From NCBI GenBank assembly GCA_023257255.1, contig JALRCR010000002.1, positions 5,000 through 68,999 of the forward strand: a DNA stretch of 64,000 bases. Reading direction: 5' to 3'. A program made the position numbers and the translations under genes. The stretch is from Gammaproteobacteria bacterium. Lineage in GTDB: Bacteria > Pseudomonadota > Gammaproteobacteria > Ga0077536. Below, in pieces: positions 2,355 through 12,313 of the stretch (positions are counted from its first letter, which is position 1; each line of letters opens with the position of its first letter). Under the pieces are notes generated by a model. The model did not search any database and had not been told where the DNA came from. It worked only from the letters and a program-made list of their open reading frames with translations.

Positions 2355-2610
2355 GTTGCACTGCTACGGAGGAACTCAGACCGGAGTGTAGGCGCCGCAA
2401 AGCCTGTTCGTCACCGTGTGGCCGGCCATCAAATGCTGATGCCGCACCGGTTTGGCCGCGAATGTTGAGAACTGTGCCGCAAAAATAACGCGCGCATTGC
2501 CGCCGGGGCTTGCATCGCATCCCGCAAGCGGCCACCCTCCGCGGCAGGAAAACCCAGATGCGCGCAACCAAGGGTGGTTGGGGCATGCTCGGCACCAAAG
2601 GAAAGCAAAC

Positions 2611-3363
2611 ATGATGTTTGAGCAACTGACCAATTCCCGCTCGTGGATGACGAGCGTGGCGGCGGCGGGCCTGCTGAGCCTGACGCTGACCGCCAGTGCG
2701 GCCGGTCCGACGGTCGGCCCGGAGGCGACCAGCTGGACCCTTAGTTCGTCCAGTTTCGCCTACGACTCAAGTTTTAATTTCGTGCGTAACAGCACCGACA
2801 CCGGCTGGGATCCGTGGCGCCTGACGACGACCGACCCGGGCACCATCGATGCGGTCGGCACGTTCACGATCAACAACCCCAGCGGGCTTTTCCCCGCGAT
2901 CGGCAACCCTGGTGACTGGAAAGTCGTCGCGGCGCGCATCACCGCCCGCATGGAAGACGGCGACTCGGCCCTCGGCGCGTTCGATTACAACAATCTTGCG
3001 GTGGTGGTGGGGAAGGGCAGTGCCACGCCTCTGCGCATTCCCGGCCTGTATCTGAACGGGTTCCCGAACGCGGTGGTGGCGACCGCCACCAACTCAACCT
3101 CGCTGCTCGGTAACGACGCTTTCGGGGTGAGCCTGGCGACCATGCTGGCTGGCAGCGGTTCGGCGGTGAATTTCTTCATCGACGACCTCAATGAAGGCAT
3201 GAACAACCTGTTCTTCTACAAGTCGCAGGCCTCGGTGTTCAAGCTGGAGTTTGACCTGCAACGCGCGCTGACCCCGCCGCCGGCGCCGGTACCGGTGCCA
3301 GGTGGTCTGCTGCTGCTGGGCAGTGCCCTGCTGACCGGGGTTGCGATCCGCCGCCGCAGCTAA
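2611..3363 (+). CDS. secreted hypothetical protein with a PEP-CTERM-like tripartite C-terminal sorting signal
   Basis: Start chosen at the ATG at 2611, preceded by 'AAGGAAAG'. Signal peptide 'SVAAAGLLSLTLTASAA'. C-terminus 'PPPAPVPVPGG-LLLLGSALLTGVAI-RRRS' is a Pro motif, a TM helix and a basic tail. The ORF-track extension 2452-2610 is basic, low-complexity sequence. Confidence 0.6.
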   Translation: MMFEQLTNSRSWMTSVAAAGLLSLTLTASAAGPTVGPEATSWTLSSSSFAYDSSFNFVRNSTDTGWDPWRLTTTDPGTIDAVGTFTINNPSGLFPAIGNPGDWKVVAARITARMEDGDSALGAFDYNNLAVVVGKGSATPLRIPGLYLNGFPNAVVATATNSTSLLGNDAFGVSLATMLAGSGSAVNFFIDDLNEGMNNLFFYKSQASVFKLEFDLQRALTPPPAPVPVPGGLLLLGSALLTGVAIRRRS

Positions 3364-3382: not shown

Positions 3383-3410
3383 AGCGTGCGCCCGCGTCAG
3401 GGCGCACGCT
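3383..3410. terminator. perfect 11-bp inverted repeat between convergent genes (possible bidirectional terminator, no U-tract)
   Basis: AGCGTGCGCCC (3383-3393), 6-nt loop, GGGCGCACGCT (3400-3410). It overlaps the HlyD-like stop codon at 3397-3399. Confidence 0.4.
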
Positions 3411-4599
3411 CCATATTGATTCTCACCGTTTGCCCCGCCTGAAGGCCGTCGGTCACGGGCTGCCCGTCCACATCCAGCGTCACCCGGAACGGGCGGTAGG
3501 TGGTCGGTAACTGCTGCGGATTGCGCGCCTCGCGGCGTCCTACCGGCACCGTGTCGTATTCGTTAACGGGCTCATTCCAGGTCAGCGAGAGCCGACCGGT
3601 CCGTTCTCCGCCGCCCGCATTAGCCGGCAATTTAATGACCACCCGCTGACCGTCCAGTACGTCGGGCAGGTCGGCGGTTTCCAGAAAACCTTCCAGCCAG
3701 AGCTGGCGGGGATTAGTCACGGTCAGGATGACTTCGCCCAGTTTGGCGACTTCACCGGCCCGACGATGGATGGCCGTGACCACGCCGTCGATCGGCACAC
3801 TCAACGTCAGACCTGCACGGTTGCCCCGGAGGGTCGTCAGTTCAACTTCAGCCAGTTTGGCATCGGTTCGCAGGTTAACCAGCGCACTCGAGGGCCCGCT
3901 GGGGCCGCCGTCCGCGCCCTGCGCGGCGGCCTGCGACAGTTCGGCCGAGCGCGCTGCCGCGCGCGCTGAGAGCTGTGCGGTGCGCAGTCGGCCCCGCCAA
4001 ACGGCCGCTTCCTGCGCGGCCTTTTCGTATTCCGCACGCGTGACGGCGCCCAGTGCCAGCAGGCGCTTAAGTTCCTGCAGACGGGTATCTCGCATCGCGC
4101 TGGTGGTTTTCGCTTCCTCGGCCTCAGCGCTCGCCATCAGGCGATTCTGTTCGGCGCGCGCCACGTTGGCCGCCGCCTGCGATTGCTGGGCGGGGTCTGG
4201 CCGGGACTGGGCGCTGCTCGTCGCTTCCAGCTGGGCCAGCACGGCACGCCGGGCGTCCAGTCGGGCTTCGGCCATGGCGATCGCCTGCTCCAGTTCGTCG
4301 CTGGAAAGTTCAACCAGCGGCTGACCGGCGCGGACCGTGTCGCCTTCGCTGACCAGCAGTTTGGTGATGCGGGAGGCCTGCGCGGGGGCGACCCGCAGTT
4401 CCAGCGCGCGTACCCGCGCGGTGCTGCTGATCATGGTGCTGTTCCAGTACCACATACCCAGTCCCACCAGCAGCGCCAGCGCAATCAGGGCCAGGCTGGC
4501 TGCTCTGACCTGTGGGCCCCGCGGCGCCGGCTTGGGCGCTGCCGCGACCGGCGCGATGGGCGTGTTCTGGTCTGGCAGGCGATTAAAGCGAATAGCCAT
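3397..4599 (-). CDS. HlyD-family membrane fusion (periplasmic adaptor) protein
   Basis: 400 aa. N-terminal TM 'ASLALIALALLVGLGMWYW', lipoyl-like 'LLVSEGDTVRAGQPLVEL', a long Ala/Gln/Arg coiled-coil hairpin, and the second lipoyl half 'VPIDGVVTAIHRRAGEVAKLGEVILTV'. Confidence 0.85.
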   Translation of the reverse strand: MAIRFNRLPDQNTPIAPVAAAPKPAPRGPQVRAASLALIALALLVGLGMWYWNSTMISSTARVRALELRVAPAQASRITKLLVSEGDTVRAGQPLVELSSDELEQAIAMAEARLDARRAVLAQLEATSSAQSRPDPAQQSQAAANVARAEQNRLMASAEAEEAKTTSAMRDTRLQELKRLLALGAVTRAEYEKAAQEAAVWRGRLRTAQLSARAAARSAELSQAAAQGADGGPSGPSSALVNLRTDAKLAEVELTTLRGNRAGLTLSVPIDGVVTAIHRRAGEVAKLGEVILTVTNPRQLWLEGFLETADLPDVLDGQRVVIKLPANAGGGERTGRLSLTWNEPVNEYDTVPVGRREARNPQQLPTTYRPFRVTLDVDGQPVTDGLQAGQTVRINMERAP

Positions 4600-4608
4600 C
4601 GATTAGTC

Positions 4609-6972
4609 CTAGGGCGCGTTGTCGCGGCTGTTGGCGGAGTCGGCAGACGACTGGCAGGCGGCGGTGCCCGGCGCCTTGTCCAGAATCAGCGCCCGGTAGC
4701 GGTCCAGATCGTGGATGGCCACGCCCAGTACCGGCCCGGTTTCGCTGAGGTCGATCGTCAATTTGCGGAGTGCATTCTCAAATTGCTCTGGCGTTTCGTC
4801 CGGGCAGCGGTCGCCGGCGGCCGCGCTCACGCCGATCCACCAGGGGCGCCCGGTGGCGGCGATTTGCTGCCCGGCCTTGCGCAACTGGGCGTCCAGTCGC
4901 TCGCGATCGGCGCCGTAGGCCATGAACACCACGCCGCTCAGCGCGCGGGCCAGCTTGGGTAATACGGGCGGCTCCAAGCCGTCGCGCTTGGCCAGCCAGA
5001 CCGGCAGGTCGGCATACAGCGGAATTTGTCCCTCGGCGGCCTTGGCCAGTTTTTGCACCACCGCCACCAAGCCTTCCAGCAGATCTTCCTGCGCATCGCT
5101 GTCATCCCAGTCACGCAGTGCCTGCGGCTCGATGTCGAGATGCAGCGCGTCGAGTCGTCCGGTATCCGACGCGTCCCGATTGAACGCCAGCACGGTCTCG
5201 AGATAACGCAGCGCGTTGTCCTGTTTGCCAGGCCGCACCCAGGCCGGGTCGCCGGCCAGCGCGTGGATTTTCACGCCGCGGGCGTGCGCTTGTTCGATGA
5301 ATGCCACCAGCGCCGCGCGCTCGGTGGTGAGCTGGGAGGCCTTCAACGCCACGAACAGATGATCGAGGCCGCTGGCGCTGGCCCAGTCCAGCAGTTCGCG
5401 AATGGCATCGGGCTGGCCGATGAAACTGCTGCGCCAGACCCACAGCGCGCGCCCGGCGCCACCCGCCGAACTGAGCCGGGCAAGCGGGGCGCGGGACTCG
5501 AACGGAATGGCGCCGGGATCCACTGCGCTGGCCAGGGCGAGCTGCAGATTGGCCCGCTCCACCGCGTAGTGCGCAATCAGCGCCTCACGCCGGCTGCGCA
5601 GGGCACGTAACTGGTCCCGCGCTTCGCGTACCAGCAGTTCGTCCGGATCCAGCTCCTCGACCAGCGCGTCGGTGCGCAAGGCGCGAACTTTCAGCTGGTC
5701 TTCGGCCACCAGCGCACGGCGCTCGCTGGCCTCGGCGGCCTTGCGGGCGCTGGCCAGCCCGCCCTGGGCGTCGATGACGTCTAGCGCAATCTGCTGAAAG
5801 GCGTCCTCTTCGGCCAGCGCGGCTTGCGCCACCAGCGCTTCGGCCCGGTCGAGGCGGGCCCGCCGCAGCGGCACCACCAGCACCGGCACCTTGAACAGCG
5901 CGCTGATGGTGAAGCCCCGGTCAATCGAGCGCTCGTTCTTGCCGTCGGATTGACCCCATGCCGTGCGCAGGCTGATATCCGGGGTGAGGGTGTCGGTGCG
6001 CGCTCGCACCGCCGTCGCCTTCAGGACTGCCGCCCGCGCACTGGCCAGTTCCTGACGGCCCTGACGCGCTGCGGCCTGGGGATCGTCGGGCACCATCGCC
6101 ACCGGTGCTTGCGCCGCCAGCGGCAGGGCGGCCTCGACGGGGCGCTGCATCAGCGCGTTCAGCCGGCTCCGTGCCAGCATCACCTGTTGGGTGACGGCTT
6201 CGGCGCTGGATTGGGCACTGGCAATTTCAGCCTGCGCTTCGAACACCCGGGTTCGCAGAACATTGCCACCCAGCGCCAGCGTCTTCATCTGCACGCGGAA
6301 GTTATCGGCGGCCGCGAGTTCCTCCGCCAGCGCGCCGGCCTGTGCCTCACCGGCCTGCAGACGGTGGTACTGCTCAAGCGCATCGGCCAGCACGGCGCGG
6401 CGGGTGGTCGCGTAGTTGGCGAGCGCGGCGAGGAGCTCGGACTCGGCGTCGGAAATCATCGCCTTGCGCTCGACCAGGCCGCCGTACACCGACTGGGTCA
6501 GCCCGGCCAGAATGCCGAGCGGATAGAAGCGCGTCATGAGTGAGAGTTCGGGGCTCATGGACACCTTGGCTTCCCGCAGCCGGGCGCGGGCTTCGATGAC
6601 GCGGTACACCGCCGCGCGCAAATCGAGGTTCCGCGCCTTGACGGTGGCCAGCACCGCCGCCGGCGTCGTTGGGGCCGGACCCGTGTCGGCCGCAAGTTCG
6701 CCCAGCGGCGGCAAGCGGCGGTGCTCGCTTTCGGCCCGTACGGCTGCCAGCAGGTCCTGCGCACGCGCGTCACCCGCCGTGGCGCCGTCGGTCTGCTGCA
6801 AGGTCTGGGCGGCGCTGTCGGTTTGTCCCTGGGCGTAGGCCAGCAAGGCCTGCTCAAAAGGCTCGCGGTCGGGAAAGGCCAGCAAAGGCTGTAAGGGCGT
6901 GCTGGCGCACGCGCCGAGCACGCCGGCCAGCGCCACCGCGCACGCCGCTCGCCATGCCGCGCGAGGGCGCAT
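4609..6972 (-). CDS. lipoprotein: TolC/OEP-like outer-membrane factor fused to a C-terminal TIM-barrel glycoside-hydrolase-like domain
   Basis: Start set at the ATG at 6972-6970, which overlaps the GT2 stop (TAATG). Lipobox 'VLGAC'. Two halves of long helices plus beta-hairpin segments ('SLMTRFYPLGILAGLTQSVYGG', 'ISLRTAWGQSDG...GFTISALFKVPV'). C-terminal residues about 508-765 alternate beta and alpha elements ('LWVWRS', 'HLFVAL', 'KIHALAG', 'ALHLDIEP', 'GVVFMAY', 'WWIGVS', 'GVAIHDL'). Confidence 0.65.
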   Translation of the reverse strand: MRPRAAWRAACAVALAGVLGACASTPLQPLLAFPDREPFEQALLAYAQGQTDSAAQTLQQTDGATAGDARAQDLLAAVRAESEHRRLPPLGELAADTGPAPTTPAAVLATVKARNLDLRAAVYRVIEARARLREAKVSMSPELSLMTRFYPLGILAGLTQSVYGGLVERKAMISDAESELLAALANYATTRRAVLADALEQYHRLQAGEAQAGALAEELAAADNFRVQMKTLALGGNVLRTRVFEAQAEIASAQSSAEAVTQQVMLARSRLNALMQRPVEAALPLAAQAPVAMVPDDPQAAARQGRQELASARAAVLKATAVRARTDTLTPDISLRTAWGQSDGKNERSIDRGFTISALFKVPVLVVPLRRARLDRAEALVAQAALAEEDAFQQIALDVIDAQGGLASARKAAEASERRALVAEDQLKVRALRTDALVEELDPDELLVREARDQLRALRSRREALIAHYAVERANLQLALASAVDPGAIPFESRAPLARLSSAGGAGRALWVWRSSFIGQPDAIRELLDWASASGLDHLFVALKASQLTTERAALVAFIEQAHARGVKIHALAGDPAWVRPGKQDNALRYLETVLAFNRDASDTGRLDALHLDIEPQALRDWDDSDAQEDLLEGLVAVVQKLAKAAEGQIPLYADLPVWLAKRDGLEPPVLPKLARALSGVVFMAYGADRERLDAQLRKAGQQIAATGRPWWIGVSAAAGDRCPDETPEQFENALRKLTIDLSETGPVLGVAIHDLDRYRALILDKAPGTAACQSSADSANSRDNAP

Positions 6973-8279
6973 TAGTACACCTCCATCTGCGCCTGGACTT
7001 GCGCCGGGGCAAAGGGATCGCGGTAGGAGGTGCGAAAGAAAATTTCCTGCGTCAGCGCGGTCAGCCGGATCAGCTTCAGCAGGATCCGGTACAGCGGATA
7101 GACCGGCAGGCTGAGCAGCAAAGGCAGACGCCGATACTCGAAGTCGCATACCACCAGACCAATCAGCGTGCGCAGGCTCATGCTGATGTAGTGCAGCACC
7201 AGCATCGTCACCAGAATGAAGTCGTAATCGCCTTTGAAGTTCAGCAGCATGTCGACGGTGTAGATCAGCCACATGGCCGGCAATATCGCCAGAAAAAGAA
7301 AGGTGTCCAGAAACGACACAAAACTGCTGGGGCTGAAGTTGGCGAAGGTCGGGTTGAAGATGTCGCGGTGTTTACGCGCGCGGTTACGCACCAGATTGCG
7401 GTCCCAGCGCAGGCGCTGGCGAATCAGCTTGGGCACGCTGGTCGGGGCGGTGGTGCGGCAGATGCCGTCTTGCGCAAATGCGATCTGGTAGCCCAGCTTG
7501 CGAATCCGGATGGTCGCATCCGAGTCGCAGCCCGGTCCCGGCTCAAGGCCGCCCACGCTGCCCAGCAGTTCCCGCCGGTAGGCGCCGATGGCGCCGGGAA
7601 CGATCGACAGGATGCCCACTTCCGCCTTGAACCGCCGGTCCAGCGACAGACTGAGCAGGTATTCGATGGCCTGCAGGCGGGTGAGCAGCGAGGTGTTGCA
7701 GTTACGCACCGTGAGGTTGCCGCTGACGGCGCCAACCTGCGGGTCTTCAAAATGACGCACCATCTGCCACACGGTGCTGCGTTCGAGCGTGGAATCGGAA
7801 TCCATCAGCACCACGAACTCGCCGCGGGCCAGTTCCAGCCCGGCGTTAATCGCCGCCGACTTGCCCTGTCGCCGGTTCATGCGATGCACCCGCAGGTGAT
7901 AGCGCTGCGCCAGCGCCTGCATTTTCTCGCCGGTGCCGTCGGTAGAGCCGTCGTCAATGAGGATAATTTCAAGGTTCGGCCAGGTCTGCTCGCGTAGCGA
8001 GCGAACCACCTCGCCAATGGTCTCGGCTTCGTTGAGCGCCGGCACGATCACCGACACCAGCGGCGTTTCCGGCCCGAATTCGGCGGGCTCCACCATCGTC
8101 GTTTCGTGCATCCACCAGTACAGCACGGCCAGATTGGTGAAGAAGTAGCGCGGGGTTTCCAGAAACAGGAAGGCCCAGAACACCCGCACGAACTGGTCGA
8201 TGTGCAGGCTGAGCGCCCAGTCGCTGACCTCTGTCAGGTACTCGATAAACCCGTTGAAGGCGAGCGTCAGGGAGTCCAC
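6972..8279 (-). CDS. family-2 glycosyltransferase, membrane-embedded processive synthase type (PgaC/NodC/BcsA-like)
   Basis: 435 aa. N-terminal TM helices, 'VIVPALNE', 'DDGSTDGT', 'MDSDS' (DxD), 'GAIGAYRR', 'QRLRWDR' (QxxRW), then several C-terminal TM helices. Confidence 0.85.
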   Translation of the reverse strand: MDSLTLAFNGFIEYLTEVSDWALSLHIDQFVRVFWAFLFLETPRYFFTNLAVLYWWMHETTMVEPAEFGPETPLVSVIVPALNEAETIGEVVRSLREQTWPNLEIILIDDGSTDGTGEKMQALAQRYHLRVHRMNRRQGKSAAINAGLELARGEFVVLMDSDSTLERSTVWQMVRHFEDPQVGAVSGNLTVRNCNTSLLTRLQAIEYLLSLSLDRRFKAEVGILSIVPGAIGAYRRELLGSVGGLEPGPGCDSDATIRIRKLGYQIAFAQDGICRTTAPTSVPKLIRQRLRWDRNLVRNRARKHRDIFNPTFANFSPSSFVSFLDTFLFLAILPAMWLIYTVDMLLNFKGDYDFILVTMLVLHYISMSLRTLIGLVVCDFEYRRLPLLLSLPVYPLYRILLKLIRLTALTQEIFFRTSYRDPFAPAQVQAQMEVY

Positions 8280-8286
8280 GCCCGCC

Positions 8287-9390
8287 TCATTCAGCCGACG
8301 GGTCGGCGGCGGGCGCGGGCTCGGCGGCGACCTGTGTCTGGGCGTTGCTCAGGCTGGCGCGTGCGTCGTCAAACACGGCCCGGGCGGTGGCGTGGCTGTC
8401 GCTCAAGGTCACCAGCCCGCAGTCGAGCGGCAGCGGTTCGCCGCCTTCGCCGGCGAGGCGGTCGACCGTCTCCTGGAGCCGCTTGAAGGCAAAGGGCGCA
8501 CCCGCGCCGTCGGTATCCACCAGCAGGGCGGCCAGACAGTCTTCGCGAAAGAGCGCCGCACAGTCGCAGTCGCGCAGGGAATCTTTGGCGCCGGCCACCA
8601 GACGGCGCATGGCGTCGTTGGCGGCGTTTGAGCCGGCAGGAAAATCGCTTTCGCGAAACGCTACCAGCATCAGGCTGAGCGGGCGTTTGTAGCGTTTGCT
8701 CGCCGCGACTTCCTGCGTCAGGCGTTCATCAAAGTAGGAAAACGAATACAGGCCGAATTCGGTATCGACCAGACTGCCGGCGCCGCGCGCATCGCCCAGT
8801 TCGCCCCGGTTGACGGCCAGCCCGCCGCGGGCATTCAGCCGGTAGGCGTAGACGGTGCGCAGTTCGGCGCGATCGGCAGGGTGCTGCTTACCGCATTTCA
8901 GGCAGAGGCAGCGGGTGTCGGGTTCGCTGCTAACGTAGTTGCAGGCCCGGCACAGATAGCTGCTGGCCGGGCGCTCGTAGTCCACGCCGATGTGCCGCAA
9001 CTGGTGGCCGCACTTCCGGCACGTATAGCGCACGCCGTCCTGAAACTCGCTTTCCGGCGCGGTATGGCCGCAGCGGAAGTGATGCAGCAGGTCGCCAATT
9101 TCCACATTGCTGCTCGCGCAAGCCGGGCAGGTTTCGCGAAACATCAGGGCATGGTGGTGGCAGTCGGGACAGTAGTACCCGCGCTCGGCGAACTGCCGTT
9201 CCAGATAACCCAGCTCGCAGAGTTGTTCCAGGTCTGCTTCGAGTTCTGCCGGGCTGAGGTTGAGACCAGACGCGTCCGGATAACTGAAGCCGCTGCTGAC
9301 GCCCGGGTCTGGTACTGGGCTTAGAAGTTGCTGGTGCGCGTTGGCCGCCAGGCTGAGCAGCGCCAGATAGCGGTCGCGAGGGGAAAGCAT
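8287..9390 (-). CDS. multi-zinc-ribbon (TackOD1-like) protein with a degenerate GGDEF domain that keeps an RxxD I-site; candidate c-di-GMP receptor
   Basis: 367 aa. Cys pairs CPDC (74-77), CPAC (88-91), CRKC (124-127), CRAC (147-150) and CLCLKC (161-166). GGDEF-like start 'GLYSFSYFDERLTQEVAASKRYKRPLSLMLVAF'. The A-site position reads 'REDCL' instead of GG(D/E)EF. 'RDCD' (res 273-276, nt 8563-8574) sits exactly 5 residues upstream of it. Confidence 0.6.
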   Translation of the reverse strand: MLSPRDRYLALLSLAANAHQQLLSPVPDPGVSSGFSYPDASGLNLSPAELEADLEQLCELGYLERQFAERGYYCPDCHHHALMFRETCPACASSNVEIGDLLHHFRCGHTAPESEFQDGVRYTCRKCGHQLRHIGVDYERPASSYLCRACNYVSSEPDTRCLCLKCGKQHPADRAELRTVYAYRLNARGGLAVNRGELGDARGAGSLVDTEFGLYSFSYFDERLTQEVAASKRYKRPLSLMLVAFRESDFPAGSNAANDAMRRLVAGAKDSLRDCDCAALFREDCLAALLVDTDGAGAPFAFKRLQETVDRLAGEGGEPLPLDCGLVTLSDSHATARAVFDDARASLSNAQTQVAAEPAPAADPSAE

Positions 9391-9522: not shown

Positions 9523-11262
9523 TCAGGCTGTGCCACCGCGCAGGATGCGGCCAGGGCGCGCGCCCGTATCCTGCCCCGCGCGTGTGACAAATTGCCCCCG
9601 CACGCAGGTGCCGACATAGCCGCTGACCTGTTCGGTCAGGCGCGGCATGCCGGCGGGCAGGTCGTAGACCATGGCGGGTGCGGCGGTCGCGAGGCGGCTC
9701 AGGTCGATGAGGTTGAGGTCGGCGCGCAGGCCGGGGAGCAGGCGTCCGCGATCGCGAAATCCGAACAGGTCGGCGTTGGCCCCGCTCAGCTTGTGGACCA
9801 CATATTCCAGCGGCAGATGGTGTGCGCTCTGCGGGTCCGTGTCGCGCACCCAGCGAGTCAGCATGTAGCTGTGCATGCCGGCGTCGGCGATGAAGCGCAC
9901 GTGGGCGCCGGCGTCGCTCAAGCCCAGCGCGGAGAGCGGATGGCGCAGCATGGCGTGCAGGGCGTTGGCGTTACCTTCGGCGTAGTTCACGCCGAAGTGG
10001 GTGAGGATGGCGCGGCCGTTGTTTTGCAGCAGCAGGTCATAGGCCACCGCTTGCGGCGTGCGCCCGGTGCGCCGCGCGATTTCAGCCACCGAGTTTTCCC
10101 GCGGCGGGGTGTAGTCGATCGGCGAACCGGCGGCGTAGGTGTGTTCCCACAGCACCGGATTTTTGTACATCAGTGAAAAGCCGGTGTCGTTAGGGTCCAC
10201 ATCGGCCAGCAGGCGCGCGCGCACTTCGGGGTTGGCCAGCGCGGCGTAGCGTGCGGCAAAGGGCAGGTCGCGCAGCGGCTGGTAGCTCGGCATGAAGCGC
10301 CAGGGATGCTCGCCCTCAAAGCTGAACAGGATGGAGATCGGGCGCCCGGAAACCTGCGGAATCAGGCGGTGACCGTCGCGCGCGGCGGCTTCGCACACCG
10401 CGAGCTGGCGTTGCCACTGGGCCGGGTCGAGGTTGTGTTGTAGCAGCAGAAACATCACCGCCGATCCGGAGCGGGCCGCCACGTTGCGCATCAGCTGCAT
10501 TTCGCGGTCGAGTCCTTCAAGGTCTTCGCCCACGATGCCGGCATTCACCATTTCGAGCAGCCCGTGACCGCTGGCCTTGACCGCGCCGGCGAGCGCGGCA
10601 AGCTCGTCTTCGGCGGCGAAAGTGCCCGGCACCGGTCGCCCGTCGACGGCGATATGGATCGCCGTGCGCGAACTCGACAGGCCAACCGCGCCGGCCGCCA
10701 TGGCGTCCCGGGTCAGTCGCGCCATCGCCGCGATGTCCTCGCCCGTCGCATTTTCATTGGCCGCGCCGCGTTCGCCCATCACATAGGCGCGCAGGGCACC
10801 GTGCGCCAGCATGGCCGCGAGGTCGAAGGCCCGCGGGGTGGCATCCAGCGCGTCGAGGTATTGCGGAAAGCTCTCCCAGTTCCACTGCATCCCGGCTTCC
10901 AGCGAGGCGCCGGGGATGTCTTCCACCCCTTCCATCAGGCCGATCAGCCACTGCTGCTGGCTTGGTCGGGCGGGCGCAAAACCCACCCCGCAGTTGCCCA
11001 TGATGGCGGTGGTCACGCCGTGACGCAGCGAGGGCATTAGCACCGGGTCCCAGCTGGCCTGTCCGTCGTAGTGGGTATGAATGTCGACCCAGCCGGGTGT
11101 GACCAGCAGGCCGTCAGCGTCGACTTGTTCTTTTGCCCGGCCCAGATGCGTGCCGATGGCGGCAATCTTGCCGTCGCGGATCGCCACATCGGCGGTGCGC
11201 GGCGCGGCGCCCGTGCCGTCAACCACCGTACCGCCTCGAATGAGGGTGTCGAACTCGGCCAT
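9523..11262 (-). CDS. N-acyl-D-amino-acid deacylase (D-aminoacylase) family amidohydrolase
   Basis: Start at ATG 11262, preceded by AGGAG. 'DTLIRGGTVVDGTGAAPRTADVAIRDGKIAAIG', 'LLVTPGWVDIHTHYDGQ'. The longer track ORF would overlap the upstream gene. Confidence 0.8.
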   Translation of the reverse strand: MAEFDTLIRGGTVVDGTGAAPRTADVAIRDGKIAAIGTHLGRAKEQVDADGLLVTPGWVDIHTHYDGQASWDPVLMPSLRHGVTTAIMGNCGVGFAPARPSQQQWLIGLMEGVEDIPGASLEAGMQWNWESFPQYLDALDATPRAFDLAAMLAHGALRAYVMGERGAANENATGEDIAAMARLTRDAMAAGAVGLSSSRTAIHIAVDGRPVPGTFAAEDELAALAGAVKASGHGLLEMVNAGIVGEDLEGLDREMQLMRNVAARSGSAVMFLLLQHNLDPAQWQRQLAVCEAAARDGHRLIPQVSGRPISILFSFEGEHPWRFMPSYQPLRDLPFAARYAALANPEVRARLLADVDPNDTGFSLMYKNPVLWEHTYAAGSPIDYTPPRENSVAEIARRTGRTPQAVAYDLLLQNNGRAILTHFGVNYAEGNANALHAMLRHPLSALGLSDAGAHVRFIADAGMHSYMLTRWVRDTDPQSAHHLPLEYVVHKLSGANADLFGFRDRGRLLPGLRADLNLIDLSRLATAAPAMVYDLPAGMPRLTEQVSGYVGTCVRGQFVTRAGQDTGARPGRILRGGTA

Positions 11263-11329
11263 GCGCGCGCTCCTGCGGGAATAAAGTGGGTCGATTATGT
11301 TGGGGCCTGCGCCGCAACAACCAGCGTTT

Positions 11330-12313
11330 TCAGCGCACCTTGAGCACCACATTACCGACCGCGCCCCGCTCGACAGCGCGATGGGCGGCGGCGATGTCGT
11401 CCAGCCCGAAGGTCGGACCCGGATGATGTTGCAGCTGCCCGCGCAACAGTTGGCGGGTAAGGTCGGCCAGCGCGGCGGCGCGGGCGGCGGGTGTCAGGTT
11501 GAAGACGATGAAAAAGCGGTAGCGCAGGTTCTTCAGCACGGACGGGAAAAAGGGCACGGGCACCTCAGCGCCGCCGGTGCCGTAGACGATGACATCGCCT
11601 TCGGCCGCGACCAGCGCGGCGTCTTGCGCGATGTTGGCCTTGCCGTCCACTTCGATGATGCGGTCGACGCCGCGCCCGTCGGTCAGCGCCAGCACCTGCG
11701 CGGCGAAATCCTCGGTCCGGTAGTTCAGCGCCTGTTCGGCCCCGGCGGCCAGCGCAAGCGCGGCCTTTTCCGGGCCGCTGACGCTGGCCAGCACGCGGCG
11801 CGCGCCGGCCGCCCGCGCAAACTGGATGGCGTAGTGCCCAACCGCGCCGGCGCCACCGGCCACCAGCACCGTTTTGTCCCGCACGCCGCCGTCGACCGCG
11901 ACCGCCTGCCAGGCCGTTAAGGCCGGAATGCCCAGACAGGCCCCGGCGAAAAAATCGGTGTGCTCAGGCAGCGGCACGGCCAGCGTGGCCGGCAAGGCGA
12001 TGTACTCGGCCGCCGTGCCGGCGGCGCGTCCCCAGGCGGCGTTGTACAGCCACACGCGTTCGCCGCAGCGGCTGCGGGCAATGCCGTCGCCAACCGCTTC
12101 GATAACACCGGCACCGTCGCTATGCGGCGTAATGCGCGGAAACGGAAGTGCGGTGCTGCGCAGCCCGGCGCGGGTTTTGACATCCACCGGATTGATGCCG
12201 GAGGCGTGTACGCGCACCAGTACTTCGCCCGGACCGGGCGCGGGCGTCGGCAGGTCGAGCACTTGCAGCACCGCCTCGGCGGGACCGGTACGTTCGTAAA
12301 CAGCAGCGCGCAT
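11330..12313 (-). CDS. NADPH:quinone oxidoreductase / zinc-type alcohol dehydrogenase (MDR) family
   Basis: 327 aa. 'MRAAVYERTGPAEAVLQVLDLPTPAPGPGEVLVRVHASGINPVDV' and the Rossmann motif 'VLVAGGAGAVG'. Confidence 0.85.
   Translation of the reverse strand: MRAAVYERTGPAEAVLQVLDLPTPAPGPGEVLVRVHASGINPVDVKTRAGLRSTALPFPRITPHSDGAGVIEAVGDGIARSRCGERVWLYNAAWGRAAGTAAEYIALPATLAVPLPEHTDFFAGACLGIPALTAWQAVAVDGGVRDKTVLVAGGAGAVGHYAIQFARAAGARRVLASVSGPEKAALALAAGAEQALNYRTEDFAAQVLALTDGRGVDRIIEVDGKANIAQDAALVAAEGDVIVYGTGGAEVPVPFFPSVLKNLRYRFFIVFNLTPAARAAALADLTRQLLRGQLQHHPGPTFGLDDIAAAHRAVERGAVGNVVLKVR

What the first reader, a model, noticed from the sequence alone, without database searches (positions are those of the whole stretch)
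4678..5451. TolC-like outer-membrane factor carrying a C-terminal TIM-barrel hydrolase-like domain
Residues about 508-765 of the 787-aa lipoprotein follow the OMF helices and show eight alternating hydrophobic beta-strand/helix units: LWVWRS, HLFVAL, KIHALAG, ALHLDIEP, LYADLP, GVVFMAY, WWIGVS, GVAIHDL. An acidic 'DIE' sits at the end of a strand, as in (beta/alpha)8 glycoside hydrolases. Synthase-dependent EPS systems nearly always carry a periplasmic hydrolase or lyase (BcsZ, PelA, PslG, PgaB, AlgL). Here that function appears to be covalently fused to the exit duct, which would place polymer-trimming activity at the periplasmic entrance of the channel. I know of no characterised OMF with such a fusion.
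Basis: inference. Interest (0 to 1): 0.7.

Follow-up and report, generated by a model that had tools for sequence, protein, structure and literature searches.

The report
Outer-membrane duct fused to chitinase-like domain
A TolC-type outer-membrane channel protein in a sugar-polymer secretion operon carries a real, widely conserved C-terminal chitinase-like barrel domain, which probably tethers a polymer-cutting enzyme to the export duct; nobody appears to have studied this arrangement.

Summary
Window 6972..4609 (-) encodes one 787-aa lipoprotein. It has a complete TolC/OprM-type outer-membrane factor (OMF, residues ~104-481), a ~25-residue linker, and a confident (beta/alpha)8 barrel (residues 507-763).

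It is not a frameshift. The same 787-aa protein appears in more than 12 independent assemblies. Homologues at 27-40% identity from four phyla align end to end. At least 43 of the 152 best family representatives carry the fusion.

The barrel belongs to a large family (1536 representatives) with no Pfam model. It is a distant relative of GH18 chitinases, not of GH114, GH135 or GH166. Its motif D608-x-x-H611-x-D613-x-E615-P lies on strand 4 and M684-x-Y686 on strand 6, and D613, E615 and Y686 are nearly invariant.

The operon is TackOD1/degenerate-GGDEF (RxxD kept), then a PgaC/NodC-like GT2 synthase, then OMF-GH, then a HlyD/EmrA-like adaptor. It is conserved across phyla.

Most likely this is a c-di-GMP-controlled, tripartite-duct exopolysaccharide system whose periplasmic hydrolase is fused to the OMF. 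OMF topology places the domain on the outside of the duct at its equatorial belt, not at the channel entrance. Enzyme activity and substrate are untested. I rate it a new variant of a known kind.

The parts
8287..9390 (-). First gene of the operon: TackOD1 zinc-ribbon domain plus a degenerate GGDEF domain (367 aa). Candidate c-di-GMP receptor.
   Evidence: Pfam TackOD1 E=3.9e-44 and GGDEF E=3.2e-5. In 8 orthologues the RxxD I-site is invariant (window RDCD), while the GGDEF signature position is degenerate and variable (FREDC, HQGNI, VEHDR and others).
6972..8279 (-). Processive family-2 glycosyltransferase (435 aa), PgaC/IcaA/NodC-like. Presumed polymer synthase and inner-membrane translocon.
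   Evidence: Pfam Glycos_transf_2 E=9e-38 and Chitin_synth_2 E=2e-11. NCBIfam PgaC_IcaA 168 bits (cut-off 422) and NodC 103 bits. A QRLRW motif is visible in the translation. Its TAA stop overlaps the OMF ATG by one base (TAATG), with GGAGG upstream.
4609..6972 (-). The 787-aa OMF-GH fusion gene (whole ORF including stop).
6907..6972 (-). Signal peptide and lipobox (L-G-A-C22); Ala at +2.
   Evidence: Translation. Cys22 is invariant in 14 homologues.
6727..6864 (-). Family-specific N-terminal three-helix extension (residues 37-82), TPR-like. Function unknown.
   Evidence: Helices 38-47, 51-60 and 69-82. Invariant F39, L43, D68, A71, L74 and E81; Y46 and G49 are kept in at least 90%.
5530..6663 (-). 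OMF core (residues 104-481). Two repeats, each with a beta-hairpin (148-161; 332-361), a ~70-residue long helix (164-234; 366-436) and a shorter helix (240-274; 443-481).
   Evidence: Pfam OEP. AF2 secondary structure. Foldseek to TolC, OprM, CusC, VceC and others, TMt 0.63-0.71.
5455..5529 (-). Linker (residues 482-506) from the end of H8 and the equatorial region to the barrel. Residues 496-505 have pLDDT below 50.
4684..5454 (-). (beta/alpha)8 GH18-like domain (residues 507-763).
   Evidence: AF2 pLDDT 84.5, pTM 0.85. Foldseek top hits are GH18 chitinases, SleL, Endo-F3, GH84 OGA and PgaB C-terminal domain. Profile against PDB sequences: 10yv_A E=5e-33, chitotriosidases E~7e-4.
5125..5151 (-). 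Putative catalytic motif D608-A-L-H611-L-D613-I-E615-P616 at the end of strand 4. It matches GH18 DxxDxDxE with the second Asp replaced by His.
   Evidence: Translation. Conservation: D613 91/94, E615 93/94, H611 84/94, P616 89/94. HMMER aligns it to FDGLDLDWEYP of chitotriosidase.
4915..4923 (-). M684-A-Y686 at the end of strand 6. It matches the GH18 'MxY(D)' motif, whose Tyr positions the N-acetyl group.
   Evidence: Translation. M 92/94 and Y 93/94. Aligned to LMAYD of chitotriosidase.
4654..4806 (-). Cys723 (loop after strand 7; codon 4804-4806) and Cys773 (C-terminal tail; codon 4654-4656). Probable disulfide.
   Evidence: These are the only Cys in the mature protein apart from the lipidated C22. 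Among 14 homologues, 8 have both, 6 have neither and none has only one.
3397..4599 (-). Membrane-anchored periplasmic adaptor (400 aa), HlyD/EmrA type. Its start is 9 nt after the OMF stop.
   Evidence: Pfam HlyD_3 E=6.6e-13 and HlyD_D23. NCBIfam EmrA/EmrK 73 bits. Junction sequence.

Best explanation
The gene encodes the outer-membrane component of a four-gene, probably c-di-GMP-gated exopolysaccharide machine of the 'tripartite duct' kind.

Proposed steps:
1. A PgaC/NodC-like GT2 synthase polymerises a sugar polymer and threads it across the inner membrane. The polymer is most likely rich in N-acetylhexosamine.
2. A membrane-anchored HlyD/EmrA-type adaptor and the trimeric TolC-like lipoprotein form the conduit through the periplasm and outer membrane.
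3. A cytoplasmic TackOD1/degenerate-GGDEF protein with an intact RxxD site acts as the c-di-GMP receptor.
4. Each OMF protomer carries a GH18-like (beta/alpha)8 glycosidase on a flexible ~25-residue linker that leaves the alpha-barrel at its equatorial belt. Three enzyme domains therefore hang on the outside of the duct in the outer periplasm.
5. The domain cleaves the operon's own polymer by a substrate-assisted retaining mechanism. E615 would be the acid/base, D613 (backed by H611) would polarise the substrate's 2-acetamido group, and Y686 would orient it.
6. Its role would match that of BcsZ, PslG, PelA-hydrolase, the PgaB C-terminal domain or AlgL: removing polymer that escapes into the periplasm and/or limiting chain length. 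Here that role is fused to the exporter, which guarantees 1:1 stoichiometry and co-localisation.

Shown: the fusion, both folds, the conserved motif, the operon and its conservation.
Inferred: catalysis, substrate, c-di-GMP binding, and export through the OMF lumen.
For: Fusion real and ancient:
- Searches show this.
- Full-length homologues with the same operon order occur in a near-identical gammaproteobacterial MAG and in Chromatiales and Nitrospirae MAGs. An acidobacterial MAG has the same order but gave no GT2 hit.
- 36 of 51 sampled representatives have Pfam OEP, and at least 43 of 152 match my OMF HMM.

Fold: TIM barrel and complete OMF.

GH18 relationship:
- Profile hits to chitotriosidases and chitinases align DxDxE and MxY.
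- GH18 entries head the Foldseek list.
- Sub-threshold Pfam GH18 hits fall on this same domain in relatives, at P0149 residues 392-472 and P0083 residues 184-292.
- A solved relative exists, 10yv_A, E=5e-33.

Active-site-like conservation: the near-invariant residues W511, W513, G574, W578, H611, D613, E615, P616, D655, P657, M684, Y686, G714, H754 and D755 all lie at or just after the C-terminal ends of strands 1, 3, 4, 5, 6, 7 and 8. This is the catalytic face of TIM barrels. No conserved carboxylate lies on strand 7, which fits a mechanism without an enzyme nucleophile.

Link to the synthase:
- A PgaC-like GT2 lies within 8 kb of the domain in 25 of 80 genome loci, including monoderm Firmicutes and an archaeon.
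- GT2/Chitin_synth_2, TackOD1 and HlyD are the commonest co-directional neighbours.
- In Methanoperedens the neighbours are a GT2 and a CE4 polysaccharide deacetylase.

Periplasmic location: lipobox, OMF topology and the co-varying Cys pair.

Precedent for GT2 + HlyD-like + TolC export: cyanobacterial cellulose (Maeda 2018, cited in PMC8892547) and BgsA/BgsB/TolC for mixed-linkage glucan (PMC13438883).

Operon coupling: TAATG overlap and a 9-nt gap.
Against: - No biochemical data exist for any member, and no paper was found on the solved relative 10yv.
- The window domain fails every curated model: no Pfam or NCBIfam hit even at E<=10. The GH18 link rests on profile E~1e-3 and TM ~0.5-0.6.
- The second Asp of the GH18 motif is His, and the Asp after the strand-6 Tyr is not conserved. 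The chemistry may therefore differ.
- The solved relative lacks the Met-x-Tyr motif (IVTF) and has Gln in place of His611.
- The GT2 scores far below the PgaC and NodC equivalog cut-offs, and the window operon has no deacetylase. A HexNAc polymer is therefore only a guess.
- Some family members carry CBM9 or CBM30, modules annotated for xylan, cellulose or glucan.
- If the adaptor-OMF duct is sealed, an enzyme on its outer wall cannot touch the polymer in transit. The 'trimming' part of the role is weaker than the 'clean-up' part.
- Domain placement comes from topology and a monomer model with pTM 0.56, not from a trimer structure.
Confidence: 0.6

Rival explanations
1. One reading: the hydrolase sits at the periplasmic mouth of the channel and trims or releases every chain as it enters the duct.
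For: The evidence for fold, motif and operon is the same as above. The linker of ~25 residues, partly disordered, could in principle let the domain reach tens of angstroms.
Against: The domain follows H8, which ends at the equatorial belt around the middle of the ~100 A alpha-barrel and outside it (PMC8277102). In assembled tripartite systems the adaptor docks on the OMF tip and forms a closed conduit (PMC8892547; PMC8277102). An external domain would therefore have no access to the entrance.
Confidence: 0.12
2. The domain acts on peptidoglycan rather than on the secreted polymer. It would be a SleL-like N-acetylglucosaminidase (or a peptidoglycan-binding module) that opens or anchors the cell wall around the duct.
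For: The second-best Foldseek hit is the GH18 spore-cortex enzyme SleL. Two of 51 relatives carry a peptidoglycan-binding SPOR domain. The equatorial position is in the outer periplasm, near the wall.
Against: The family co-occurs with a PgaC-like GT2 in Firmicutes and in Methanoperedens; from general knowledge, that archaeon has no murein. Other relatives carry CBM9 or CBM30 rather than wall-binding modules. From general knowledge, ordinary OMFs need no dedicated wall hydrolase.
Confidence: 0.1
3. The barrel is a non-catalytic, lectin-like module (like the chitinase-like proteins). It would bind the polymer to retain it at the cell surface or periplasm, or dock another component.
For: The GH18 motif is imperfect: Asp becomes His, and the Asp after Tyr is missing. 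No curated GH model is matched.
Against: From general knowledge, chitinase-like lectins typically lose the catalytic Glu. Here E615 is kept in 93/94, D613 in 91/94 and Y686 in 93/94 across very divergent sequences. That pattern is expected for catalysis.
Confidence: 0.1
4. Assembly or sequencing artefact: two adjacent genes (OMF and hydrolase) joined by a frameshift.
For: None was found for this gene. One family representative, P0058, does look like an artefactual join of a truncated GH domain to the downstream adaptor, so such errors do occur in this operon.
Against: all show a single ORF of conserved length in many independent assemblies and phyla. Conservation runs through the junction. There is no composition break.
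Confidence: 0.01

Closest known systems
Tripartite (synthase + HlyD-like adaptor + TolC-like OMF) polysaccharide export: the cyanobacterial cellulose system of Thermosynechococcus (Maeda 2018, cited in PMC8892547) and BgsA/BgsB/TolC for mixed-linkage beta-glucan in Sinorhizobium (PMC13438883)
   Same: A GT2 synthase is paired with a membrane-fusion adaptor and a TolC-type channel, in place of the usual TPR/beta-barrel porin. Control by c-di-GMP is known for Bgs and inferred here.
   Different: Here all parts, including a dedicated OMF, are in one operon. The c-di-GMP receptor is a separate TackOD1/degenerate-GGDEF protein. The synthase is PgaC/NodC-like rather than a cellulose or MLG synthase. 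The OMF carries a fused glycosidase-like domain and an extra N-terminal helical module. Neither paper read here mentions such a fusion; a search of the MLG paper for 'hydrolase' returned no occurrences.
GH18 chitinases and endo-beta-N-acetylglucosaminidases (e.g. human chitotriosidase 1hkk/1lg1, Pseudoalteromonas chitinase 6k7z, SleL 4s3k, Endo-F3 1eok)
   Same: (beta/alpha)8 fold. D-x-E at the end of strand 4 and M-x-Y at the end of strand 6, aligned by HMMER. No conserved nucleophile on strand 7.
   Different: Only ~10-18% identity and TM 0.5-0.6. The second Asp of DxxDxDxE is His. The Asp after Tyr and the strand-8 Trp are not kept (His754-Asp755 instead). It scores below Pfam GH18 thresholds. 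This is a separate family, not a GH18 member.
Periplasmic hydrolases and lyases of synthase-dependent systems: BcsZ (GH8), PslG (GH39), PelA hydrolase domain (GH166), PgaB C-terminal domain (GH153), AlgL (PL5)
   Same: Same presumed job and same genomic logic: one polymer-degrading enzyme encoded with the synthase and exporter. PgaB is also an outer-membrane lipoprotein that works at the exporter. The PgaB C-terminal domain appears among the Foldseek hits (rank 21, E=9.5e-6).
   Different: No sequence-profile relationship to any of them. From general knowledge, those enzymes are free or bound non-covalently to a TPR scaffold. Here the enzyme is covalently part of a TolC-type channel.
PDB 10yv, 'Putative GH97 from Cellulomonas fimi' (275 aa, stand-alone)
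   Same: Same domain family by profile (E=5.3e-33 over the whole domain). It keeps W-x-W, G-x-x-x-W, D-V-E-P and D-x-P.
   Different: It is stand-alone and actinobacterial. It has Gln for His611 and IVTF for (V)FMAY. A single-sequence search from the window domain does not reach it. The 'GH97' label is not supported for the window domain, which has no Pfam hit at all. No publication was found.
c-di-GMP receptors with degenerate GGDEF domains in EPS operons (e.g. YdaK of the B. subtilis ydaJKLMN operon, PMC13274460; PelD and PssE from general knowledge)
   Same: A degenerate GGDEF protein is encoded next to a GT2 synthase and a hydrolase.
   Different: Here the domain is fused to a TackOD1 zinc-ribbon module, and the system is diderm with an adaptor/OMF exporter.

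Membership tests
Outer membrane factor (TolC/OprM; Pfam PF02321 OEP) | Two tandem OEP repeats, each with a beta-hairpin plus long coiled-coil helices | tested here: met
   Pfam OEP E=1.6e-16, 61 bits against a cut-off of 22, two stretches. AF2 shows both repeats. Foldseek TMt 0.63-0.71 to TolC, OprM, CusC, VceC, MtrE and SilC over ~430 columns.
Outer membrane factor (TolC/OprM; Pfam PF02321 OEP) | Lipoprotein signal (OprM/NodT branch) and a cognate adaptor gene alongside | tested here: met
   Lipobox LGAC with invariant Cys22. A HlyD/EmrA-like gene starts 9 nt downstream.
Outer membrane factor (TolC/OprM; Pfam PF02321 OEP) | Curated subfamily membership (NCBIfam TolC type I / NodT) | tested here: not met
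   TIGR01844 26 bits against a cut-off of 225. TIGR01845 13 bits against 210. This is a divergent branch.
Outer membrane factor (TolC/OprM; Pfam PF02321 OEP) | Trimer forming a 12-strand barrel and alpha-tunnel | not testable with these tools
   Only monomer prediction was available.
GH18 glycoside hydrolases | (beta/alpha)8 barrel | tested here: met
   GH18 structures top the Foldseek list.
GH18 glycoside hydrolases | DxxDxDxE motif on strand 4 | tested here: inconclusive
   The motif is D608-x-x-H611-x-D613-x-E615. The D-x-E core is nearly invariant, but the second Asp is His in 84/94. HMMER aligns it to DGLDLDWE.
GH18 glycoside hydrolases | MxYD motif (Tyr and Asp) on strand 6, and a conserved Trp on strand 8 | tested here: inconclusive
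   M684 is kept in 92/94 and Y686 in 93/94. The following residue is variable (R, G, E and others), and strand 8 carries His754-Asp755 instead of Trp.
GH18 glycoside hydrolases | Match to the curated family model (Pfam PF00704) above threshold | tested here: not met
   The window domain has no hit even at E<=10. Relatives reach only 20.6 bits against a cut-off of 29.6. Not filed as GH18.
GH18 glycoside hydrolases | Hydrolysis of beta-linked GlcNAc glycosides with retention | not testable with these tools
   Needs an enzyme assay.
GH114 / GH135 / GH166 / GH153 / GH8 / GH39 (known EPS-system hydrolases) | Detectable sequence or profile similarity to Ega3, Sph3, PelA, PgaB-C, BcsZ or PslG | tested here: not met
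   The family profile against all PDB sequences listed only 10yv, GH18 entries and one designed protein at E<=10. No Pfam GH114 or GHL hit. PgaB-C appears only as a generic TIM-barrel Foldseek hit.
GH97 (the label on PDB 10yv) | Match to the GH97 catalytic domain model | tested here: not met
   No Pfam family at all for the window domain, and none among 61 relatives scanned. The PDB chain is 275 aa.
Synthase-dependent, tripartite-duct EPS secretion (Xcs / Bgs-TolC type) | Processive membrane GT2 + HlyD-type adaptor + TolC-type OMF acting together | tested here: met
   All three are adjacent and translationally coupled. The order is conserved in the Chromatiales and Nitrospirae MAGs and, apart from a missing GT2 hit, in the acidobacterial MAG; delta-proteobacterial and unclassified-bacterial loci keep TackOD1-GGDEF, GT2 and the GH-domain gene in order, and a Planctomycetales locus holds the same three genes in a different order. 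Membership is by gene content only; function is not tested.
Synthase-dependent, tripartite-duct EPS secretion (Xcs / Bgs-TolC type) | c-di-GMP activation | tested here: inconclusive
   The degenerate GGDEF has an invariant RxxD in 8 orthologues. Binding was not tested.

The most novel reading that the evidence does not exclude
The four-gene cassette (TackOD1/GGDEF* receptor, PgaC/NodC-like synthase, OMF-glycosidase fusion, HlyD-type adaptor) is an undescribed class of c-di-GMP-gated exopolysaccharide secretion system found across several phyla. Its hydrolase is built into the outer-membrane channel. The barrel defines a new glycoside-hydrolase family descended from the GH18 lineage, with an H-x-D-x-E catalytic motif, and this family also serves GT2 synthases in Firmicutes and archaea.
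Probability: 0.45. Interest if true: 0.72.

Novelty: new variant of a known kind. Interest (0 to 1): 0.6.

Why it matters
Synthase-dependent polysaccharide systems (cellulose, PNAG, Pel, Psl, alginate) all carry a periplasmic hydrolase or lyase. Why a producer needs an enzyme that destroys its own product is still debated. A system in which that enzyme is covalently fixed to the exporter, at a defined position and in 1:1 stoichiometry, is a natural experiment. Deleting or mutating one domain of one protein would separate the enzyme's catalytic role from any scaffolding role.

The finding also adds a third, self-contained example of polysaccharide export through a TolC/adaptor duct. It brings a dedicated OMF and a new type of c-di-GMP receptor.

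It also flags a large family (1536 cluster representatives) of GH18-related barrels with no Pfam model. That family could hold new specificities for biofilm-matrix degradation.

Tried and rejected
1. Single-sequence searches of the domain against Pfam (E<=10), NCBIfam and PDB sequences gave nothing meaningful. Only a family profile reached PDB relatives.
2. The word-indexed homology search found very few relatives: 2, 21 and 11 hits. The exhaustive search was needed.
3. P0004 (4589 aa, E=1.6e-59) and P0110 are false positives. Each gives many weak per-repeat hits (i-E ~0.01) that sum over tandem repeats.
4. P0058 looked like a second kind of fusion (GH domain + HlyD adaptor) that would have supported a Rosetta-stone argument. 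Its GH domain stops after strand 5 and runs straight into the adaptor's membrane helix. It is probably a deletion or frameshift joining neighbouring genes, so I did not use it.
5. The first genome scan with the 49-sequence domain alignment failed because no stretch was conserved enough. A closer 14-sequence alignment worked.
6. GH-A clan membership was rejected. The 'EP' after strand 4 recalls the NEP motif, but the residue before Glu is Val or Ile, and no conserved Glu lies on strand 7.
7. Literature searches for 10yv, for C. fimi GH97, and for TolC/GH fusions found no relevant paper.
8. The B. subtilis ydaJKLMN lead could not be tied to this family, because no YdaL sequence was available.
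I could not measure where the barrel sits relative to the OMF or check residue clustering in 3D.


Full report
**What is at the coordinates.**
The finding's span (4678-5451) is the C-terminal third of a single minus-strand ORF, 6972..4609. From the ATG at 6972 it encodes 787 aa, beginning MRPRAAWRAACAVALAGVLGAC. L-G-A-C22 is a lipobox, and Cys22 is invariant in 14 homologues.

The gene is the third of four tightly packed genes on the minus strand:
- 9390-8287: TackOD1 plus a weak GGDEF domain.
- 8279-6972: a family-2 glycosyltransferase.
- 6972-4609: the OMF-GH gene discussed here.
- 4599-3397: a HlyD-type adaptor.

The GT2 stop and the OMF start overlap as TAATG, with GGAGG upstream. The adaptor starts 9 nt after the OMF stop.

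Pfam finds two OEP stretches in the N-terminal part and nothing in the last 290 residues, even at E<=10. NCBIfam and a single-sequence PDB search are equally silent.

AlphaFold2 on residues 495-787, with a 22-sequence alignment, gave pLDDT 84.5 and pTM 0.85, with eight strands alternating with helices. In full-length numbering the strands are 507-512, 538-542, 568-573, 609-612, 652-657, 680-684, 711-716 and 748-754. 'DIE' (613-615) follows strand 4.

The full-length model (pLDDT 80) shows two OMF repeats: beta 148-161 with helices 164-234 and 240-274, then beta 332-361 with helices 366-436 and 443-481. Foldseek matches it to OprJ, TolC, SilC, VceC, MtrE, CusC and OprM at TM (target) 0.63-0.71. 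The architecture is therefore a complete OMF, a ~25-residue linker, and a TIM barrel.

**It is not an artefact.**
- Fourteen cluster representatives at 27-99% identity align from the lipobox to the end of the barrel, with conserved columns on both sides of the junction.
- The 90% cluster contains 13 members of exactly 787 aa from NCBI, ENA, JGI and Logan assemblies.
- A 64%-identical homologue is one 787-aa gene in a fully syntenic neighbourhood on four contigs.
- GC content is even across the gene.
- In the species-representative genome set, full-length fusions occur in a near-identical gammaproteobacterial MAG and in Chromatiales, acidobacterial and Nitrospirae MAGs.
- Among the 152 best representatives of the domain family, at least 43 carry an OMF N-terminal part, 55 are stand-alone (<=360 aa), and the rest are other architectures or fragments. 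Pfam OEP is present in 36 of 51 sampled.

**What the barrel is.**
An exhaustive search found 1536 cluster representatives at E<=1e-3. Two top hits are repeat-summed false positives.

Across 94 domain sequences a sharp signature stands out:
- W511-x-W513 on strand 1.
- G574-x-x-x-W578 after strand 3.
- H611-L-D613-[VI]-E615-P616 after strand 4, plus W622.
- D655-x-P657 on strand 5.
- M684-x-Y686 on strand 6.
- G714 on strand 7.
- G750-x-A-x-H754-D755 on strand 8.

Almost all of these lie at the C-terminal strand ends, the catalytic face of TIM barrels.

A profile of 49 domains searched against all PDB sequences gave one strong hit: 10yv_A, 'Putative GH97 from Cellulomonas fimi', 275 aa, E=5.3e-33 over the whole domain. 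It then gave only GH18 enzymes, with chitotriosidases at E~7e-4 followed by fungal and bacterial chitinases. HMMER aligned FDaiHLDvEP to FDGLDLDWEYP and alMaY to NLMAYD.

Foldseek of the model puts GH18 chitinases, SleL, Endo-F3, GH84 O-GlcNAcases and the PgaB C-terminal domain on top (E~1e-6, TM 0.5-0.6). Weak Pfam GH18 hits in relatives fall on this same domain.

The motif D608-x-x-H611-x-D613-x-E615 is the GH18 DxxDxDxE with the second Asp replaced by His. There is no conserved carboxylate on strand 7. Together with M-x-Y, this points to GH18-style substrate-assisted catalysis on a 2-acetamido sugar. That inference draws on established GH18 mechanism and is not tested here.

The domain does not reach any curated GH18 threshold, so I treat it as a separate, related family.

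**Context.**
The GT2 is closest to PgaC/IcaA (168 bits, cut-off 422) and NodC (103 bits). It hits Chitin_synth_2 and carries QRLRW. It is a processive, membrane-embedded synthase of the GlcNAc-polymer lineage but not an equivalog of any known one.

The first gene's GGDEF domain has an invariant RxxD I-site in eight orthologues, while the GGDEF signature is degenerate and different in each. That is the pattern of a c-di-GMP receptor rather than a cyclase.

The operon order TackOD1-GGDEF > GT2 > OMF-GH > adaptor recurs in the Chromatiales and Nitrospirae MAGs. The acidobacterial MAG keeps TackOD1-GGDEF > OMF-GH > adaptor but gave no GT2 hit. Delta-proteobacterial and unclassified-bacterial loci keep TackOD1-GGDEF > GT2 > a ~700-aa GH-domain gene without an adaptor hit, and a Planctomycetales locus holds the same three genes in a different order. 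Representatives of that length class match the OMF profile.

A PgaC-like GT2 lies within 8 kb of the domain in 25 of 80 genome loci, including Paenibacillus, Cohnella, Planococcus and a Methanoperedens MAG. GT2/Chitin_synth_2, TackOD1 and HlyD are the commonest co-directional neighbours. In Methanoperedens the neighbours are a GT2 and a CE4 polysaccharide deacetylase. In Planococcus they are a response-regulator diguanylate cyclase, a HEAT-repeat protein and a chitin-synthase-like GT2. The barrel family is thus a recurrent partner of this synthase type, whatever the cell envelope.

**Where the domain sits.**
In OMFs the paired helices H2/H4 and H6/H8 each have one end at the equatorial domain, a belt around the middle of the ~100 A alpha-barrel. 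The C-terminal tail is part of that belt (PMC8277102).

Here H8 is residues 443-481. It is followed by a short strand (491-493), a low-confidence stretch (496-505) and then the barrel. The three barrels of a trimer should therefore hang on the outside of the duct about half-way between the outer membrane and the channel tip, on flexible tethers. They should not sit at the channel entrance.

Cys723 and Cys773 are the only cysteines of the mature protein apart from the lipidated one. Among 14 homologues they are both present in 8, both absent in 6 and never mixed. This fits a disulfide in the periplasm.

**Mechanism proposed.**
By analogy with the cyanobacterial cellulose system and BgsA/BgsB/TolC, the synthase, adaptor and OMF would form a continuous route for a nascent chain, with c-di-GMP sensed by the TackOD1-GGDEF* protein. 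The fused barrel would be the system's BcsZ/PslG/PelA/PgaB/AlgL equivalent. Because it lies outside a presumably sealed duct, its most plausible task is to degrade polymer that leaks or is mis-delivered into the periplasm. It might also cut chains when the duct is disengaged.

Fusion guarantees that every exporter brings three copies of the enzyme. The fold, motif, fusion and operon are shown. Catalysis, substrate (my best guess is a beta-linked HexNAc polymer), c-di-GMP binding and the export path are inferred.

**Rivals.**
- A peptidoglycan-directed SleL-like role is suggested by Foldseek rank 2 and by SPOR fusions in 2 of 51 relatives. It is disfavoured by the GT2 linkage in monoderms and an archaeon, and by CBM9/CBM30 fusions.
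- A lectin-like, inactive module is disfavoured by the near-invariance of D613, E615 and Y686.
- A frameshift artefact is excluded.

**Novelty and score.**
Export of polysaccharides through TolC-type ducts is known, and so are periplasmic hydrolases in synthase-dependent systems. New here are the covalent OMF-hydrolase fusion, the unannotated GH18-related family, and the cassette with a TackOD1/GGDEF* receptor. Public records call the protein only 'TolC family protein', and stand-alone relatives 'hypothetical protein'. I found no paper on it. A crystal structure of a distant stand-alone member exists without a retrievable publication.

I rate it a new variant of a known kind, interest 0.6. It is a solid, testable lead for the exopolysaccharide secretion field, but its function is not yet demonstrated.

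Noticed in passing
window 8287-9390 (-): The TackOD1 zinc-ribbon + GGDEF protein has an invariant RxxD I-site (RDCD), while the GGDEF signature is degenerate (FREDC) and differs in each of 8 orthologues. It looks like a c-di-GMP receptor of a type not described for EPS systems. The only paper mentioning TackOD1 is the archaeal two-component census.
   Followed up: partly
window 6727-6864 (-), residues 37-82 of the OMF: A conserved three-helix, TPR-like N-terminal extension. F39, L43, D68, A71, L74 and E81 are invariant in 14 homologues, and Y46 and G49 are kept in at least 90%. Ordinary OMFs lack it. It is a possible docking site for another component.
   Followed up: no
window 4804-4806 and 4654-4656 (-), Cys723 and Cys773: These two cysteines co-vary perfectly among 14 homologues: 8 have both, 6 have neither. 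Homologues lacking them have a 3-5 residue insertion in the loop. This suggests a disulfide tying the C-terminal tail to the loop after strand 7.
   Followed up: yes
window 2452-3363 (+): A secreted protein with a PEP-CTERM-like C-terminus (weak NCBIfam hits, E=0.0018) converges on the operon. A 282-aa gene sits in the same position in the 64%-identical relative. It may link to exosortase-sorted surface proteins.
   Followed up: partly
window 9523-11352 (-): An Amidohydro_3 (D-aminoacylase-like) gene lies directly upstream on the same strand and is syntenic in the 64% relative. It is unclear whether it belongs to the system, for example as a deacetylase.
   Followed up: no
PDB 10yv_A: The solved stand-alone family member is labelled 'Putative GH97' but is only 275 aa. 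The family has no Pfam GH97 signal, so the label looks wrong or provisional. It also lacks the Met-x-Tyr motif (IVTF) and has Gln for His611.
   Followed up: partly
P0058: An apparent GH-domain + HlyD-adaptor fusion. The barrel stops after strand 5 and runs into the adaptor's membrane helix. This is probably a deletion or frameshift joining neighbouring genes in a metagenome contig.
   Followed up: yes
L012 7200-11806 (Omnitrophica MAG): Two tandem paralogous ORFs of OMF-GH length (776 and 772 aa) that hold the GH domain, plus a third GH-domain ORF of 448 aa in one locus.
   Followed up: no
L027 813-7394 (Methanoperedens MAG): An archaeal cluster: a 536-aa protein ending in this barrel, then a GT2 synthase, a 388-aa unknown protein, and a CE4 deacetylase with CBM96. 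This resembles a PNAG- or chitosan-like pathway in an archaeon.
   Followed up: partly
P0004 and P0110: Giant tandem-repeat proteins (4589 and 1621 aa) rank near the top of the homology list. This happens only because many weak per-repeat matches add up. Full-sequence E-values need this caution.
   Followed up: yes
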